Shown: positions 1 to 4,921 of the stretch, piece by piece
How positions within the stretch are numbered: position 1 is the stretch's first letter
Layout: every line of letters begins with the position of its first letter
Virus record (IMG/VR): IMGVR_UViG_2529293142_000015
Span: 1 to 4,921 of that record
Direction: 5' to 3' (one strand)
Length of the DNA stretch: 4,921 nucleotides
From: a virus
Lineage: Duplodnaviria; Heunggongvirae; Uroviricota; Caudoviricetes
The notes under the pieces: model-generated
What the model saw: the letters and a program-made list of their open reading frames with translations, nothing else
Databases searched by the model: none
What the model was told of the DNA's origin: nothing
Translations under genes and position numbers: made by a program

Positions 1-681
1 CATACTGTTAATCGCGTCATCCTGGACGCAACACATCAGAACCGCATTATTGCAGAGCTGGTTATTCCTCCAGAAACGGGCGGATTCTGGATCCGGGAAA
101 TTGGTGTATTTGATGAGCACGGCGATTTAATCGCGGTGGGCAATACTGCCGAAAGTTACAAGCCAGCCGTTGCCGAAGGGTCCGGACGTGCACAAACATT
201 TCGCACCATTCTGACCGTATCCAGCACTGCCACTGTGGCGCTTACCGTGGATAACACCATGGTGATGGCCACAGTGGATTACGTGGATAACAAACTGAAA
301 GAGCATGAACAGTCACGACGTCACCCGGATGCCTCGCTGACCGCAAAAGGCTTTGTTCAACTCAGTAGCGCCACTAACAGCGATTCTGAAACGCTGGCGG
401 CAACGCCAAAAGCAGTTAAGGCCGCGTATGACCTGGCTAACGGGAAATACACCGCACAGGATGCAACGACAGCACAGAAAGGGATAGTTCAGCTCAGCAG
501 CGCGACCAACAGCACATCTGAAATGCTGGCGGCAACGCCAAAGTCGGTAAAGGCAGCCTATGACCTTGCTAACGGGAAATATACCGCTCAGGACGCTACG
601 ACAGCACAAAAAGGATTGTCCAGCTCAGTAGTGCAACCAACAGCGCATCTGAAACGCTTGCCGCGACACCGAAAGCAGTGA
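1..681 (+). CDS. stf: Side tail fibre protein Stf, 5' portion (5'-partial; truncated by a 1-nt deletion at 613-615, then runs out of frame to TGA at 679-681)
   Basis: Frame 1 is open from nt 1 with no stop, so the true start lies upstream. The translation (..[32 protein letters not shown]..) resembles the conserved N-terminal region of lambda Stf / P2 gpH-type fibres, followed by two 44-aa tail-fibre repeats (..[39 protein letters not shown]). After 614 the frame-1 product becomes nonsense ([21 protein letters not shown]) while frame 3 continues the repeat. Confidence 0.85.
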
Positions 682-700
682 AAGCAGCTAATGATAATGC
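349..700 (+). repeat. Tail-fibre repeat array: two complete 132-bp (44-codon) units at 349-480 and 481-612, plus a partial, frameshifted third unit from 613
   Basis: Direct comparison of the DNA and the translations: units start at exactly 349, 481 and 613 (period 132 nt). The copies share the protein motif but differ at many synonymous positions. Confidence 0.85.
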
Positions 701-1832: not shown

Positions 1833-2431
1833 TGACATTCAGAATGAGTGAACAATCACGGACCATAAAAATTTATAATCTGCTGGTCGGAACCAATGAA
1901 TTTATTGGTGAAGGTGATGCATACATTCCACCTCATACAGGTCTGCCTGCAAATAGTACTGATATTGCTCCGCCAGATATTCCAGCTGGCTTCGTGGCTG
2001 TTTTCAACAGTGATGGGGCGTCCTGGCATCTCGTTGAAGATCATCGTGGTAAAACGGTTTATGACGTGGCTTCCGGCGACGCGTTATTTATTTCTGAACT
2101 CGGTCCGTTACCGGAAAATGTCACCTGGTTGTCGCCGGAAGGGGAATATCAGAAGTGGAACGGCATAGCCTGGGTGAAGGATACGGAAGCAGAAAAAGTG
2201 TTCCGGATACGGGAGGCGGAAGAAACAAAAAACAGCCTCATGCAGGTAGCCAGTGAGCATATTTCGCCACTTCAAGATGCCGTAGATTTGAATATTGCAA
2301 CAGAGGAAGAAACATCGTTACTGGTGGCATGGAAGAAGTATCGAGTGCTGCTGAACCGTGTTGATACATCAAGAGCACCGGATATTGAGTGGCCAGCTTC
2401 CCCAGTGGAATCAAGGAGTAAACAAGCATAA
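1832..2431 (+). CDS. tfa: Tail fibre assembly protein (lambda Tfa / P2 gpG family chaperone)
   Basis: 199-aa ORF beginning [61 protein letters not shown].., which closely matches my recollection of lambda Tfa. It lies immediately 3' of stf with a TAATG stop/start overlap, and GAGG sits 8 nt upstream of the ATG. Confidence 0.9.
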
Positions 2432-2525
2432 AGGCTTTCATTTCAAACCATTGTAGTCCAGTTTTTTGTATAGTACCCTGCTCATTACGGATGACATGTG
2501 TGATTTGGAATTTCAGGGTACCATT

Positions 2526-3179
2526 ATGAATGTTATTTCATCGTTAAAACAGCTTAACAGACAGCGAAATATTAAAACAAAAAAGATAAAGACGAAGGCC
2601 AGACTGGCATTTCTAAAAATGCGATACAGAAGGAAAACATCATTACAGCCGGATAGTTATAAAACAGTGTGCATTTTCATGCACATGCAAGCCATTGGTG
2701 ACGGCATCGTTACCTCAGGGTTTATTAAACAACTTCAAAAATCCGGTATGGTGGTATATGTGATAGCACCTTCAAGAGTATCATTCCTCTTTACTGACAT
2801 TGTTGGCGTGGATGCCTTTATATCTTACGAGAAAAATAAATTTAACGAACTAAAAGCAAAGATAAAAAAACTGAATGTAGATCTTGTTGTTGACTTCTCA
2901 AATTTTGATAACACAGCGATAACCAGATTGCAAACACTACATTTACTTAGACCTAAACACTCTATCTGTTTTAATCATCCTGCCGTAACTATTTTTGATA
3001 CAAATATAATCGATAATCGTTCCATTCACACATCTGAAAGAATGAAAAAAGTTTTATCTTTACTAAAGATAAAAAATAATAATTATGCTGCAGCGCTTAA
3101 TTTTGACAACAAAATATATGAACCAGCAAATATTGTTGCAAATGAATTCAGGAAAAAAACAAAAATTAGTTATATTTAA
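2526..3179 (+). CDS. Glycosyltransferase family 9 (heptosyltransferase-like), N-terminal fragment; ends out of frame at TAA 3177-3179 after the A7 tract
   Basis: The translation contains ..KTVCIFMHMQAIGDGIVTSGFIKQL.. (compare the GT9 N-terminal strand plus the S.LGD motif of WaaC/WaaF) and ..VDLVVDFSNFDNTAITRLQTLHLLRPKHSICFNH.. (compare the ..DLVIDLQG...S..L....ga..riG.. region). Start chosen at ATG 2526 because AGGG lies 7 nt upstream; the ORF-track start 2466 is TTG, and ATG 2496 and ATG 2619 are alternatives. The region is very AT-rich. Confidence 0.6.
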   Translation: MNVISSLKQLNRQRNIKTKKIKTKARLAFLKMRYRRKTSLQPDSYKTVCIFMHMQAIGDGIVTSGFIKQLQKSGMVVYVIAPSRVSFLFTDIVGVDAFISYEKNKFNELKAKIKKLNVDLVVDFSNFDNTAITRLQTLHLLRPKHSICFNHPAVTIFDTNIIDNRSIHTSERMKKVLSLLKIKNNNYAAALNFDNKIYEPANIVANEFRKKTKISYI

Positions 3180-3702
3180 CCCTTATGGCTCTCAGAATAG
3201 CAGAACCTTATCTGATGAACAGATAAAAAAAGTACTAGCTTACCTTAATAACCTTAAGGGATATCACACAATAGTTTTTAATATGGGAAAACAGATTAAT
3301 CACAATGGATTGGATAATGTGTCTCTATCTCCATTTTCTGATGCCGGATGTTCATTTGCATTGGTTCGCCATGCTGATTTTGTTATAACTGTAGATACTG
3401 CCATTGTACATTTAGCCAGTGCATTAAACATTAGACAATACTGTATATATAATAACAGAATGCATGAAGGAAAATTCGAAAATAATATTGTGTGGGGGCC
3501 AAACAGCAAATTAGCGACTCAACTCACCACATCCGAACATCTAAGGTCTGAAGGGGGCGACGATATGCATAAATTCGACATAATGATCTTAATTAATGCT
3601 ATCAAACAAGATTTGACAAACGATATACCGAATTACCACTCGGATTTAGGTTGTAAAAATAGTTCCAGAAACCCAGAATTAGAAAGTAGCAATTCTTTAT
3701 AA
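3085..3702 (+). CDS. Glycosyltransferase family 9 (heptosyltransferase-like), C-terminal fragment (homology clear from about 3160; 3085 is only the first ATG in this frame)
   Basis: The translation ..KKQKLVIFNPYGSQNSRTLSDEQIKKVLAYL..GYHTIVFNMG.. and ..FALVRHADFVITVDTAIVHLASALNIRQYCIYN.. parallels the WaaC/WaaF C-terminal domain (..AKFVVSVDTGLSHLTAALDRPNITVYG.. / ..CKAIVTNDSGLMHVAAALNRPLVALYG..). It is in the +1 frame relative to the N-terminal fragment. Removing one A from the A7 tract fuses the two into one GT9-sized protein of about 390 aa from ATG 2526 (about 360 aa from ATG 2619). Confidence 0.6.
   Translation: MLQRLILTTKYMNQQILLQMNSGKKQKLVIFNPYGSQNSRTLSDEQIKKVLAYLNNLKGYHTIVFNMGKQINHNGLDNVSLSPFSDAGCSFALVRHADFVITVDTAIVHLASALNIRQYCIYNNRMHEGKFENNIVWGPNSKLATQLTTSEHLRSEGGDDMHKFDIMILINAIKQDLTNDIPNYHSDLGCKNSSRNPELESSNSL
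3153..3159 (+). repeat. A7 homopolymer at the junction of the two glycosyltransferase reading frames (followed by C and an A5 run)
   Basis: Sequence ggAAAAAAAcAAAAAtta. The upstream frame reads R-K-K-T-K-I-S-Y-I-stop; the +1 frame reads G-K-K-Q-K-L-V-I-F-N-P-Y-G-S. A6 or A9 would give an in-frame fusion (..NEFRKKQKLVIFNPYGS..). Confidence 0.75.
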
Positions 3703-3755
3703 AGTAGAAACCTCAACAGTTTTATCAGGACCTACGATATATTATATAACAACAA

Positions 3756-3789
3756 GCCGCCCATTACCCAATATGAGGGTATTGGCGGC
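3756..3789. terminator. Imperfect GC-rich hairpin between convergent genes; candidate bidirectional or minus-strand terminator
   Basis: The left arm gccgccc-attaccc (3756-3769) pairs with gggtatt-ggcggc (3777-3789): 12 of 14 positions pair, including 6 consecutive GC pairs, around a 7-nt loop aatatga. It lies in the 96-bp gap between the GT9 stop (3702) and the gpU stop (3799-3801). A U-rich run follows only on the minus-strand transcript (rc of 3741-3755 is ttgttgttatataat). Confidence 0.3.
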
Positions 3790-3798
3790 AATGTAAAA

Positions 3799-4293
3799 TC
3801 AGAACAGTCCTTTAACTGAACTGGCCGCGCTGTTAAGAGATGATGTCACCTTATCTTTGAAGCCGGACAGCATATCGCTGAACGATGAGGATTGCAGGCG
3901 CTCCCGCAAATCCTCATCACAGCGTTCAAGGGTCAGTGAAAATTCTATCTTTTTCGCCTTACCGTAGCGATCAAACTCGGAACGGGTCGTATTCGTTCCG
4001 GTCAGGACATACATGCCGTAAATCTGCCCGACACCATCAATCAAAGGCCAGGGTCGTCCTGTATACGCCTGCGTGGTCAGCAGCGACAGCGACACTTCGC
4101 CACCTGTAATTTCAGGATAAAGCACACCAGAAAGCACGATGCGATCATCACCTGCACCGATATACTGCCAGCTTGCTGAACGGTTAACGCGTTCATTTTT
4201 CACATGCCGCCAGCTTTTGTTTTGCTGTAACTGCTGATGCGGCAGCGTGCGCAGCTCAAAAACAAACATGCCGTAGATCATCATCATGGCCAT
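3799..4293 (-). CDS. Phage tail protein, P2 gpU family
   Basis: The 164-aa ORF (MAMMMIYGMFVFELRTLPHQQLQQNKSWRH..LSGVLYPEITGG..LIDGVGQIYGMYVLTG..KIEFSLTLERCDED..) matches the pattern I recall for P2 gpU. GAGGAG sits 2 nt before the first ATG (4293) and 8 nt before the second (4287), so the true start is probably 4287. The upstream gene's stop overlaps the SD (TGAGGAG), indicating coupling. Confidence 0.75.
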   Translation of the reverse strand: MAMMMIYGMFVFELRTLPHQQLQQNKSWRHVKNERVNRSASWQYIGAGDDRIVLSGVLYPEITGGEVSLSLLTTQAYTGRPWPLIDGVGQIYGMYVLTGTNTTRSEFDRYGKAKKIEFSLTLERCDEDLRERLQSSSFSDMLSGFKDKVTSSLNSAASSVKGLF

Positions 4294-4299
4294 GACTCC

Positions 4300-4921
4300 T
4301 CAATCTTTATCGTAAAAACTTCCACGCCCGGCACGGGCGCGCCGTTCCATTTCTGCCCTGATCATTTCACCGACCAGTTTCGCCAGTTCGCGGGGATTCT
4401 GCGTAACAACGTTATGCAGATGAACATGAATTTCACCACCAAATCCGGAGGCAACAGGCTCCCGGTTACGGAAAGTTGCAGGAACTGATGCCACTGGCGA
4501 TCGTATGGCCTCCGCCACCGGGCGGGAGCTGGCCGCAACAACAGGGACCAGCGCCGGAGGCAGCGGAGCCGGAACTACGGGTGTGATATTAATTGCGGGG
4601 GCAGGCTTACTGACCTGCGCAATCTTCCGCTCCTGCCACTCCCCACGAACAGCAAGTGCGCGGGGCAGGTTCTTAAAGACAATATCGCCGGGGCCAATGC
4701 GTTTTTTCGTCTCATCAACCAGCTTACCTGTGTTATCAGCAATTTTGCTGAGTCTGCGTAGCGTCCCGGTATTGCTGTCTGTGAGCGGTTTGTTGTCTTT
4801 GGGCTTATCACCTCCGGTGCCATTGCCATTTTCCACAGGCTTCGGCGGATTGATTTTCGCCAGGTCCCCCTGAAGCAAGGCAACCTTGTCCTGAAGAATG
4901 GCCGCACGCTGTGCGTCTTCG
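4300..4921 (-). CDS. Tail tape-measure protein, C-terminal portion (P2 gpT-like; 5' end beyond the right window edge)
   Basis: The minus-strand frame is open from the window edge (EDAQRAAILQDKVALLQGDLAK..) to TGA at 4300-4302; the 4878 'start' in the ORF track is only a TTG. It sits immediately upstream of and coupled to the gpU-like gene, as for T-U in P2-type tail operons. It has a Pro/Ala-rich low-complexity stretch and a GC-rich composition. The assignment rests on synteny and general character, not a specific motif. Confidence 0.6.
   Translation of the reverse strand, partial: EDAQRAAILQDKVALLQGDLAKINPPKPVENGNGTGGDKPKDNKPLTDSNTGTLRRLSKIADNTGKLVDETKKRIGPGDIVFKNLPRALAVRGEWQERKIAQVSKPAPAINITPVVPAPLPPALVPVVAASSRPVAEAIRSPVASVPATFRNREPVASGFGGEIHVHLHNVVTQNPRELAKLVGEMIRAEMERRARAGRGSFYDKD

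What the first reader, a model, noticed from the sequence alone, without database searches (positions are those of the whole stretch)
3142..3170. Homopolymeric A7 tract puts the glycosyltransferase out of frame: candidate phase-variable ON/OFF switch, pseudogene, or homopolymer sequencing error
The two GT9 halves are in frames 0 and +1, and the frame switch is most parsimoniously at ggAAAAAAAc (3153-3159). A6 or A9 gives one continuous protein (..ANEFRKKQKLVIFNPYGS..), while the observed A7 terminates after the N-domain. Slipped-strand mispairing at such tracts is an established mechanism of phase variation for surface-glycan glycosyltransferases in several pathogens. A7 is short for efficient slippage, so genuine inactivation or a read error are equally live. 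The shift could lie anywhere in 3073-3160, where both frames are open.
Basis: partly seen in the sequence, partly recalled or inferred. Interest (0 to 1): 0.7.

Follow-up and report, generated by a model that had tools for sequence, protein, structure and literature searches.

The report
Slippery poly-A run switches off prophage glycosyltransferase
A run of A's inside a sugar-transferase gene carried by an E. coli prophage repeatedly gains or loses bases in related strains; this copy is in an OFF state, partly through a real slip and probably partly through a sequencing error.

Summary
The A7 run (3153-3159) and the frame break are real in the window. Intact alleles read A8-C-A6 or AAGAAAAA-C-A6 and encode a 392-aa GT9 glycosyltransferase. 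The window reads A7-C-A5, so it has two separate 1-nt losses in adjacent A runs. The window comes from STEC isolate 031, sequenced by 454 only, and two assembly versions disagree at two other runs nearby, so I first suspected a pure artefact. An exact look-up of the 139-aa ORF left by a -1 shift then found at least 24 contigs with a split gene. Seven of the ten shown read A7-C-A6 and one reads A10-C-A6. Three different prophage backbones each hold near-identical members (0-8 SNPs in 6 kb) with different first-run lengths. The first run is therefore a genuine slippage hot spot, and the window's A7 is most likely real. The second-run A5 occurs only in the 454 data and one other older assembly, and is probably an undercall or secondary decay. 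The G-interrupted allele never varied (0 of 59). Reversible, adaptive phase variation is not shown. This is a new member of a known kind, of moderate interest.

The parts
2526..3702 (+). GT9-family glycosyltransferase gene, prophage cargo, disrupted in this window. The intact form is 1179 nt and 392 aa.
   Evidence: Intact 392-aa CDS annotated at the same place in 48 of 49 complete E. coli genomes. Pfam PF01075 27.5 bits against a cut-off of 22. AlphaFold model pLDDT 90.4, GT-B fold closest to GT9 structures 3TOV, WaaC and WaaF. GC 33% against 47-56% in the flanking genes.
2526..3179 (+). N-terminal ORF, 217 aa, ending ...ANEFRKKTKISYI*. It covers the N-terminal (acceptor) Rossmann domain only.
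   Evidence: This exact product (WP_094192246.1) is on record on a single contig, AFDY02000019.1.
3085..3702 (+). C-terminal ORF in the +1 frame (205 aa from ATG 3085; called as 194 aa from ATG 3118). It covers the nucleotide-sugar-binding domain.
   Evidence: The 194-aa product is found only in AFDY02 and in the Logan assembly of SRR057628.
3153..3159 (+). First A run, A7 here. It is A8 in ON alleles of the same lineage (codons K210 K211 N212), A7 or A10 in other OFF alleles, and AAGAAAAA in the common stable allele. This is the slippage hot spot.
3160..3160 (+). Single C separating the two A runs
3161..3165 (+). Second A run, A5 here. It is A6 in every other sequence except L019/L026 (AIGW01). 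Probably a 454 undercall or a secondary slip.
   Evidence: L032 is identical to the window over 2461-4921 except for A6 here.
3177..3179 (+). Premature stop (TAA) of the N-terminal frame
3283..3702 (+). 139-aa ORF, the C-terminal remnant that gene callers report in -1 or +2 alleles. It was used as the exact-match probe that revealed the other OFF alleles.
   Evidence: at least 24 contigs in 29 index blocks.

Best explanation
The gene is a 392-aa GT9-family glycosyltransferase (GT-B fold). It is carried as low-GC cargo between the tail-fibre assembly gene and the tail genes of a P2-like E. coli prophage.

In one allelic lineage, codons 210-212 are written AAA AAA AAC, which gives an uninterrupted A8 run followed by C and A6. 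This A8 run is a slipped-strand mispairing hot spot. Replication slippage repeatedly changes it to A7 or A10. That shifts the frame at the linker between the two Rossmann domains and stops translation at residue 214 or 215. The whole donor-binding domain is lost and the enzyme is off.

The window carries the A7 (OFF) state, most likely as a real, inherited allele of its prophage clade. The additional loss of one A in the next run (A6 to A5) is seen only in the 454-derived data of this strain and in one other older assembly. It is most likely a flow-sequencing undercall. Less likely, it is a second neutral slip in a gene that was already dead.

What is shown: the tract states, their recurrence on independent backbones, and the truncation point.

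What is inferred: replication slippage as the cause, loss of enzyme function, the artefactual nature of the A5, and a role of the enzyme in modifying LPS core.
For: - Tract alleles: the window is A7-C-A5. Intact relatives are A8-C-A6 or AAGAAAAA-C-A6.
- An exact look-up of the 139-aa remnant ORF found at least 24 contigs. Of the 10 shown, 7 are A7-C-A6 (one a MEGAHIT metagenome contig; two contigs seen in 4 and 5 samples), 1 is A10-C-A6, 1 is A8-C-A5, and 1 is A8-C-A6 with a different lesion.
- Over 6.16 kb downstream, three backbones lie 125-436 SNPs apart. Each holds near-identical members with different first-run lengths: L030 and L031 (A7), L029 (A10) and L020 (A8) at 0-1 SNP; L027 and L028 (A7) against L009 (A8) at 7-8 SNPs; L033 (A7) against L026 (A8) at 2 SNPs.
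- L032 is identical to the window over 2461-4921 except for A6 in the second run.
- In Logan and ENA contigs only the first run varies.
- The chain is conserved through the junction in 36 homologues, with N219 and P220 invariant.
- In the model, the tract lies between helix 199-210 and strand 214-219, the first strand of the C-terminal domain.
- The source is 454-only. Two versions of the same strain's sequence disagree at runs w615 and w2227, and each disagreement breaks a conserved gene. The Logan contig of SRR057628 starts with exactly the five A's that the A5 and A6 versions share.
- Flow-based platforms are known to miscall homopolymer lengths and create false pseudogenes (PMC7604302).
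- Precedent: recurrent A9-to-A8 and A8-to-A7 slipped-strand frameshifts in the A. baumannii capsule glycosyltransferase gtr6 (PMC10249906).
Against: - I could not verify the sequencing platforms of the Logan runs.
- One A7 contig (L033) also has a CC-to-C frameshift in its tape-measure gene, so not every supporting contig is above suspicion.
- All three assemblies showing A7-C-A5 (the window, AFDY02 and the Logan assembly of SRR057628) probably derive from the same 454 reads. The window's own A7 is supported only indirectly, through clade relatives.
- The second-run A5 is shared with L026, a close relative, so it could be real.
- L004 and L026 show no other homopolymer errors across 9 runs of 6 or more over 6.16 kb, so these assemblies are not grossly noisy.
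- Loss of enzyme function and the enzyme's substrate were not tested.
Confidence: 0.6

Rival explanations
1. Pure sequencing artefact. Isolate 031 really carries the intact A8-C-A6 gene, and both 1-nt losses are 454 homopolymer undercalls carried into every assembly of the same reads.
For: - The data are 454 Titanium only.
- Two versions of the same region disagree at two other runs, and each disagreement makes a frameshift.
- The Logan contig breaks exactly at one of those runs.
- Both changes are -1 in A runs, and the 1177-nt gene has no substitution against L001.
- The truncated products are unique to this strain's data among about 15 billion proteins.
- Platform bias of this kind is documented (PMC7604302).
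Against: - A7 in the first run occurs in at least 7 independent contigs from other runs and a MEGAHIT metagenome. These include L032 and L033 in the window's own clade.
- The Logan contig runs through the tract without a break, unlike at the discordant run at 2227.
- AFDY02 has no homopolymer discrepancy across 9 further runs of 6 or more in the next 6 kb.
Confidence: 0.15
2. Fixed, decaying pseudogene. Both losses are real. The gene was inactivated once by a slip and has since picked up a second neutral slip. There is no switching back and no regulatory meaning.
For: - All four distinct clade-I sequences are out of frame in some way.
- OFF contigs recur unchanged in 4-5 samples, so they are stably inherited.
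- The A5 is shared with L026.
- The same gene is also knocked out by ISKpn26 in strain CH468, so loss of the gene is tolerated.
- OFF alleles are a small minority.
Against: - Two or three slips against 0-1 substitutions in the gene is an odd ratio for neutral decay.
- The A5 does not follow the tree. L033 (A6) is 2 SNPs from L026 (A5) and 13 SNPs from L004 (A5).
- The A5, the A5 at 2579 and the A6 at 3225 are each private to an NCBI assembly and never appear in Logan or ENA contigs.
Confidence: 0.15
3. True contingency locus. The A8 run is a maintained, reversible ON/OFF switch that lets lysogens vary a surface glycan, for example LPS core used as a phage receptor or seen by the host.
For: - ON and OFF lengths occur among near-identical prophages on three backbones.
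- In clade I, L026 has A8 while its 2-SNP neighbour L033 has A7. This can be read as a reversion.
- The target is a surface-glycan type enzyme placed next to tail-fibre genes.
- Some partial proteins in public assemblies end or start exactly at the run (P0007 ends ...ANEFR, P0009 starts NKKLVIF). This is what a mixed population could cause.
- The A. baumannii gtr6 case is a parallel.
Against: - The run is only one base longer than other A7 runs expected from composition.
- The commonest allele has the run interrupted by a synonymous G and never varied (0 of 59).
- Homologues do not conserve the tract.
- ON outnumbers OFF by roughly 1000 or more contigs to a few dozen.
- Parsimony cannot tell reversion from repeated loss.
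- No within-culture data are available.
Confidence: 0.2
4. Recoding. The shifted gene still yields full-length enzyme through transcriptional slippage or ribosomal frameshifting on the A-rich site.
For: An A7-C-A5 stretch is the kind of sequence on which RNA polymerase or ribosomes can slip. This rests on general knowledge, not on a test done here.
Against: - The C-terminal half is in the +1 frame. The -1 frame meets TAG at 3167-3169, so a -1 ribosomal shift cannot rescue it.
- Thousands of copies encode the protein in one frame.
- No conserved stimulatory element was looked for or found.
Confidence: 0.03

Closest known systems
Slipped-strand frameshifts in poly-A tracts of the Acinetobacter baumannii capsule glycosyltransferase gtr6 (PMC10249906)
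   Same: Both involve short poly-A runs (A9 to A8, A8 to A7) inside a surface-glycan glycosyltransferase gene. Both show independent recurrence of the same frameshift, and in both the protein is truncated.
   Different: In gtr6 the mutants were selected in the laboratory by phage, and the phenotype (an altered capsule) is known. Here the evidence is only comparative, the gene is on a prophage, the substrate is unknown, and no selection has been shown.
Homopolymer phase-variable LOS/LPS glycosyltransferases of Neisseria, Haemophilus, Campylobacter and Helicobacter (general knowledge; reviewed in the introduction of PMC4746626)
   Same: A repeat inside the ORF whose length sets the frame, with ON and OFF alleles among close relatives, in a glycan-modifying enzyme.
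   Different: Those tracts are usually poly-G/C or tetranucleotide repeats. They are longer, are maintained, and switch at high measured rates. This one is an A8 run in an AT-rich gene, it is interrupted in most alleles, and neither rate nor reversibility has been measured.
LPS core heptosyltransferases WaaC, WaaF and WaaQ (CAZy GT9)
   Same: Pfam PF01075 hit above threshold. The predicted GT-B fold is closest to 3TOV, 2H1H/6DFE (WaaC) and 1PSW (WaaF). The Orbus homologue lies among LPS genes.
   Different: Only 12-17% identity to these structures. NCBIfam equivalog scores are far below cut-off (24 against 467 bits; 23 against 185 bits). The protein has an extra basic N-terminal helix of about 45 residues and is prophage-borne. 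Donor and acceptor are unknown.
False pseudogenes from 454 or Ion Torrent homopolymer miscalls (PMC7604302)
   Same: The source is 454-only, the changes are -1 in A runs, and assembly versions disagree at nearby runs.
   Different: The first-run A7 is reproduced in independent assemblies of related prophages, so at most the second-run change fits this category.

Membership tests
Slipped-strand (simple-sequence) phase-variable locus | A repeat tract inside the ORF whose length change shifts the reading frame | tested here: met
   A8 gives 392 aa. A7 gives 214 aa and A10 gives 215 aa.
Slipped-strand (simple-sequence) phase-variable locus | In-frame and out-of-frame tract lengths among very close relatives, arising independently | tested here: met
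   Three backbones each hold A8 and A7 or A10 members 0-8 SNPs apart over 6.16 kb.
Slipped-strand (simple-sequence) phase-variable locus | Reversibility (OFF to ON) within a lineage | tested here: inconclusive
   In clade I, L026 (A8) against L033 (A7) can be explained equally well by one reversion or by two losses.
Slipped-strand (simple-sequence) phase-variable locus | High-frequency switching within a clonal culture (mixed tract lengths in reads) | not testable with these tools
   No raw reads were available. The only hint is that some public partial proteins end or start at the run.
Slipped-strand (simple-sequence) phase-variable locus | A tract longer than composition predicts, and maintained across alleles or homologues | tested here: not met
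   A runs of 7 or more appear in 55% of shuffles. 48 of 49 complete genomes carry the G-interrupted form. The homologues vary in this region.
Glycosyltransferase family 9 (Pfam PF01075) | Sequence match above the curated threshold | tested here: met
   27.5 bits against a cut-off of 22, residues 204-312.
Glycosyltransferase family 9 (Pfam PF01075) | GT-B two-domain fold closest to solved GT9 enzymes | tested here: met
   Model pLDDT 90.4. Top Foldseek hits are 3TOV, WaaC and WaaF, at E-values of 1e-13 to 1e-10.
LPS heptosyltransferase orthologues (WaaC, WaaF, WaaQ) | Score at or above the NCBIfam equivalog cut-off | tested here: not met
   24 against 467 bits (RfaQ) and 23.4 against 185 bits (heptosyltransferase I).
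LPS heptosyltransferase orthologues (WaaC, WaaF, WaaQ) | ADP-heptose donor and LPS core acceptor | not testable with these tools
   Context only: the Orbus homologue lies beside a GT9, a GT2, EptA-like sulfatases and LapAB.
Flow-sequencing homopolymer artefact | Data from a flow-based platform, with the change confined to homopolymer length | tested here: met
   454 Titanium only. Both changes are -1 in A runs.
Flow-sequencing homopolymer artefact | The change is not reproduced in independent data | tested here: inconclusive
   First run: A7 is reproduced in independent contigs of the same clade, so the criterion is not met for that run. Second run: A5 is absent from all Logan and ENA contigs but present in AIGW01, whose platform is unknown.
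P2-like prophage cargo gene (moron) at the tail-fibre/tail junction | Sits between conserved phage modules, has deviant composition, and is replaced by other cargo in related prophages | tested here: met
   Lies between the tail-fibre assembly gene and gpU. GC is 33% against about 50%. Related prophages carry serine acetyltransferase or macro-domain genes at the same place.

The most novel reading that the evidence does not exclude
The uninterrupted A8 allele is a working contingency switch in E. coli. It would be a reversible, slippage-driven ON/OFF control of a prophage-encoded LPS-core-modifying GT9 enzyme. It would let a lysogen population hedge between a modified and an unmodified surface, for phage-receptor masking or host recognition. 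The common AAG allele would be a naturally locked-ON form.
Probability: 0.2. Interest if true: 0.6.

Novelty: new member of a known kind. Interest (0 to 1): 0.4.

Why it matters
Simple-sequence contingency loci are thought to be rare in E. coli. A prophage cargo glycosyltransferase with a recurrently slipping A8 run, alongside a natural synonymous locked allele, gives a ready-made pair of alleles for testing. One could ask whether slippage-driven ON/OFF variation of a surface glycan matters for lysogens, for example in phage adsorption, superinfection exclusion or host interaction.

There is also a practical lesson. The window's frameshift is a composite of a probably real slip and a probably artefactual one. 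Pseudogene calls in 454-era assemblies need independent data, and a census limited to complete genomes (49 of 49 in frame) can miss a real polymorphism.

Tried and rejected
- **Pure 454 artefact.** This was my working conclusion. It rested on the unique truncated products, the 454-only source, version-discordant runs, and 49 of 49 complete genomes plus 5 of 5 metagenome contigs being in frame. I gave it up as the sole explanation after the exact look-up of the 139-aa remnant ORF.
- **Ribosomal -1 frameshifting.** Rejected. The C-terminal half is in the +1 frame and the -1 frame hits TAG.
- **A single 2-nt deletion.** Impossible from either in-frame allele.
- **Promoter and terminator scan around the gene.** Promoter-like sites were no more frequent than in shuffles (7 found against a mean of 6.3). 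Three terminator-like sites were found against a mean of 1.0 (sd 0.9), all on the minus strand, and I did not follow them up.
- **Searches with no result.** GenBank phage collection, no DNA match. GTDB representative genomes, no match to the tract pattern. PADLOC, no defence-system match. PDB by sequence, nothing meaningful. Literature search for the protein accessions, the IMG genome id and AIGW, nothing.
- I could not examine the contigs that end at the tract.
- **The window's own record.** I could not identify it. Its tail-fibre fragment is not on record under any tested start codon. It is most simply a superseded version of the AFDY assembly.
- **Clade members elsewhere.** None among complete genomes (best 99.0%). 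Only L019 in IMG/VR.

Full report
**What is in the window.** The 4921-base window is part of a P2-like prophage:
- the end of the tail-fibre gene (to 1832);
- a tail-fibre assembly gene (1832-2431);
- a low-GC gene for a family-9 glycosyltransferase (2526-3702, + strand);
- on the minus strand, gpU (3799-4293) and the end of the tape-measure gene.

The A7 run is at 3153-3159. The N-terminal ORF (2526-3179, 217 aa) stops at TAA 3177-3179. The C-terminal part reads in the +1 frame (3085-3702) and holds the Pfam GT9 match. An A7 run is not remarkable here. The gene is 33% GC and 38% A and has three A7 runs, and 55% of shuffles have at least one.

**What the intact gene looks like.** Forty-nine complete E. 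coli genomes carry the gene. Forty-eight have it annotated as one 392-aa 'glycosyltransferase family 9 protein', and one has it broken by ISKpn26. Aligned to them, the window differs in length at two places, not one:

| Sequence | Tract between AGG and TTAG |
|---|---|
| Intact, uninterrupted allele | A8-C-A6 |
| Intact, commoner allele | AAGAAAAA-C-A6 |
| Window | A7-C-A5 |

No single 2-nt deletion links these. Apart from the two gaps, the window's gene is identical to that of L001. Thirty-six homologues of 360-400 aa (E. coli, Providencia, Orbus) are conserved straight through the junction (K-K-L-V-I-F-N-P, with N219 and P220 invariant). The model (pLDDT 90.4) is a GT-B fold closest to GT9 structures 3TOV, WaaC and WaaF. 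The tract encodes the linker between helix 199-210 and the first strand (214-219) of the C-terminal nucleotide-sugar domain. A truncation here removes the whole donor-binding domain.

**Provenance, and why I first thought it was an artefact.**
- The exact 217-aa product exists on one contig only, AFDY02000019.1 of GCA_000225185.3.
- AFDY is STEC isolate 031, sequenced only on 454 Titanium and assembled with Celera (PMC3491183).
- The window is 99.92% identical to that contig. It differs by two substitutions and two homopolymer lengths. At w615 the window has GGATTG against GGAATTG, which breaks the tail-fibre gene in the window only. At w2227 the window has A6 against A5, which breaks the assembly gene in AFDY02 only. 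All relatives have the longer, in-frame form at both sites.
- A Logan assembly of run SRR057628 equals the window over 2228-3907. It starts with exactly the five A's shared by the A5 and A6 versions, as an unresolved bubble in the reads would produce.
- Flow-based platforms are known to miscall run lengths and create false pseudogenes (PMC7604302).
- Pattern scans found only in-frame tracts elsewhere: 49 of 49 complete genomes, 5 of 5 metagenome contigs and 8 of 9 IMG/VR contigs.

**What changed the picture.** The one odd IMG/VR contig (L019, A8-C-A5) is a close but distinct relative. To identify its genome I looked up the 139-aa ORF that remains when the gene is shifted by -1 (window 3283-3699). 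It is on at least 24 contigs (29 index blocks). The ten shown break down as follows:

| Tract | Contigs |
|---|---|
| A7-C-A6 | L027 (a MEGAHIT metagenome contig), L028 (seen in 5 samples), L030, L031, L032 (seen in 4 samples), L033, L034 |
| A10-C-A6 | L029 |
| A8-C-A5 | L026 (AIGW01, the genome of L019) |
| A8-C-A6, with a separate -1 in the A7 run at 3225 | L025 |

Over 6.16 kb downstream of the tract, three backbones lie 125-436 SNPs apart. Each holds near-identical members with different first-run lengths:
- L030 and L031 (A7), L029 (A10) and L020 (A8): 0-1 SNP apart.
- L027 and L028 (A7) against L009 (A8): 7-8 SNPs apart.
- L033 (A7) against L026 (A8): 2 SNPs apart.

The first run has therefore changed length at least three or four times independently, while hardly any substitutions occurred. 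In the window's own clade (eight shared tape-measure SNPs), L032 is identical to the window over 2461-4921 except that its second run is A6. The window's A7 is thus most likely a real, inherited state.

**The second run.** A5 occurs only in the 454-derived data of isolate 031 and in L019/L026. All Logan and ENA contigs have A6. The other private run changes (A5 at 2579 in L026, A6 at 3225 in L025) are also confined to single NCBI assemblies. The A5 does not follow the tree: L033 (A6) is 2 SNPs from L026 and 13 from L004. I read it as probably a flow-sequencing undercall. It could also be a real secondary slip. AFDY02 and AIGW01 show no other homopolymer discrepancies across 9 further runs in the next 6 kb, and I could not find the platform of AIGW01.

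**How it most likely works.** In the lineage whose product is P0001, codons 210-212 are AAA AAA AAC. All three intact loci with the uninterrupted run encode P0001, which is on at least 1000 contigs. Replication slippage in this A8 run gives A7 or A10, with termination at residue 214 or 215 and loss of the donor-binding domain. The commoner allele (P0002, also on at least 1000 contigs) has AAG as its first lysine codon. This breaks the run, and it showed no length variants in 59 unbiased observations. It looks like a stable form, although I could not run the matching targeted look-up for it.

OFF alleles are a small minority and are inherited unchanged across several samples. This looks like a mutational hot spot that makes recurrent loss-of-function alleles. 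Whether it also switches back, and whether that is selected, is open. Parsimony cannot separate one reversion from two losses in clade I.

**What the enzyme does (inference).** It is GT9 by Pfam and by fold, but it is not an orthologue of WaaC, WaaF or WaaQ (24 against 467 bits). It has an extra basic N-terminal helix. In Providencia the homologue again follows a prophage baseplate and fibre module. In Orbus it lies among LPS genes: a GT9, a GT2, two EptA-like sulfatases and LapAB. The same slot in related E. coli prophages holds serine acetyltransferase or macro-domain genes. A role in modifying LPS core, the kind of surface P2-like phages bind (general knowledge), is plausible but untested.

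**Comparison with known systems.** The closest documented case is A. baumannii gtr6. There, A9-to-A8 and A8-to-A7 slipped-strand frameshifts recur in a capsule glycosyltransferase under phage selection (PMC10249906). Classical phase-variable LOS and LPS transferases share the logic, but their tracts are longer and maintained and their switching rates have been measured. Two defining features could not be shown here (reversibility and within-culture switching). One was not met (tract maintenance). No paper mentions this protein. I rate it a new member of a known kind, of moderate interest.

Noticed in passing
window 601-640 (site 615): The tail-fibre gene is frameshifted in the window (ORFs 136-681 and 678-1832) because GGAATTG reads GGATTG. 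AFDY02 (L004) and L002 have the in-frame form. This is almost certainly an assembly or consensus error in this version.
   Followed up: yes
window 2227-2232; L004 9691-9707: The A6 run in the tail-fibre assembly gene is A5 in AFDY02, which truncates that protein to 138 aa (a product unique to that contig). The window and all relatives have A6. The Logan contig of SRR057628 begins exactly at this run, which suggests mixed read calls there.
   Followed up: yes
L012 (NZ_CM166354.1, strain CH468) 3179-4377: The same GT9 gene is interrupted by an IS5-like ISKpn26 element near codon 250. This is an independent, genuine inactivation of the gene.
   Followed up: partly
proteins P0007, P0009: Public 'partial' proteins end at ...ANEFR (just before the run) or begin at NKKLVIF (just after it). 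Some assemblies therefore break exactly at the first A run. This could reflect mixed tract lengths within a culture. The contigs could not be fetched.
   Followed up: no
window 2432-3798 and one search hits H75-H96: The slot between the tail-fibre assembly gene and gpU is a variable cargo site. Related P2-like prophages carry a serine acetyltransferase there, or a macro-domain protein plus a serine O-acetyltransferase, instead of the GT9 gene.
   Followed up: partly
L004 11274-18126: The tail block (sheath, tube, gpE, tape measure, gpU) lies on the opposite strand to the fibre genes and to gpD. It is inverted relative to the canonical P2 order as I recall it. The arrangement is shared by all related loci seen.
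   Followed up: no
L004 18476-20059; L005 20176-20316: A GmrSD_N-domain gene (527 aa) sits between gpD and ogr in the isolate 031 prophage, with a weak Hok/Gef-like ORF after ogr. L019 carries a different 932-aa gene at that place. This looks like another cargo or defence hot spot.
   Followed up: no
L033 1222-4028: The tape-measure gene of this Logan contig is split (233 + 697 aa) by a CC-to-C change relative to L004 and L026. This is either a real lesion or an assembly error, and it is a caution about that contig's quality.
   Followed up: partly
L025 (GCA_053662135.1), window-equivalent 3187 and 3225-3231: This copy has the ON tract A8-C-A6 but is broken by a -1 in another A7 run (3225-3231), and it also has a G-to-A change at 3187. 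The platform is unknown, so this could be a second slippage site or an error.
   Followed up: no
window 337-690: The tail-fibre gene contains about 132-nt direct repeats that encode repeated ...[36 protein letters not shown]... units. The C-terminal part (about 1440-1780) is rich in His-x-His motifs.
   Followed up: no
PMC3491183 Table 1 and Table A1: Accession AFDY00000000 is assigned to isolate 031 in Table 1 and to 'H.I.8' in the appendix table. One of the two is probably a misprint.
   Followed up: no
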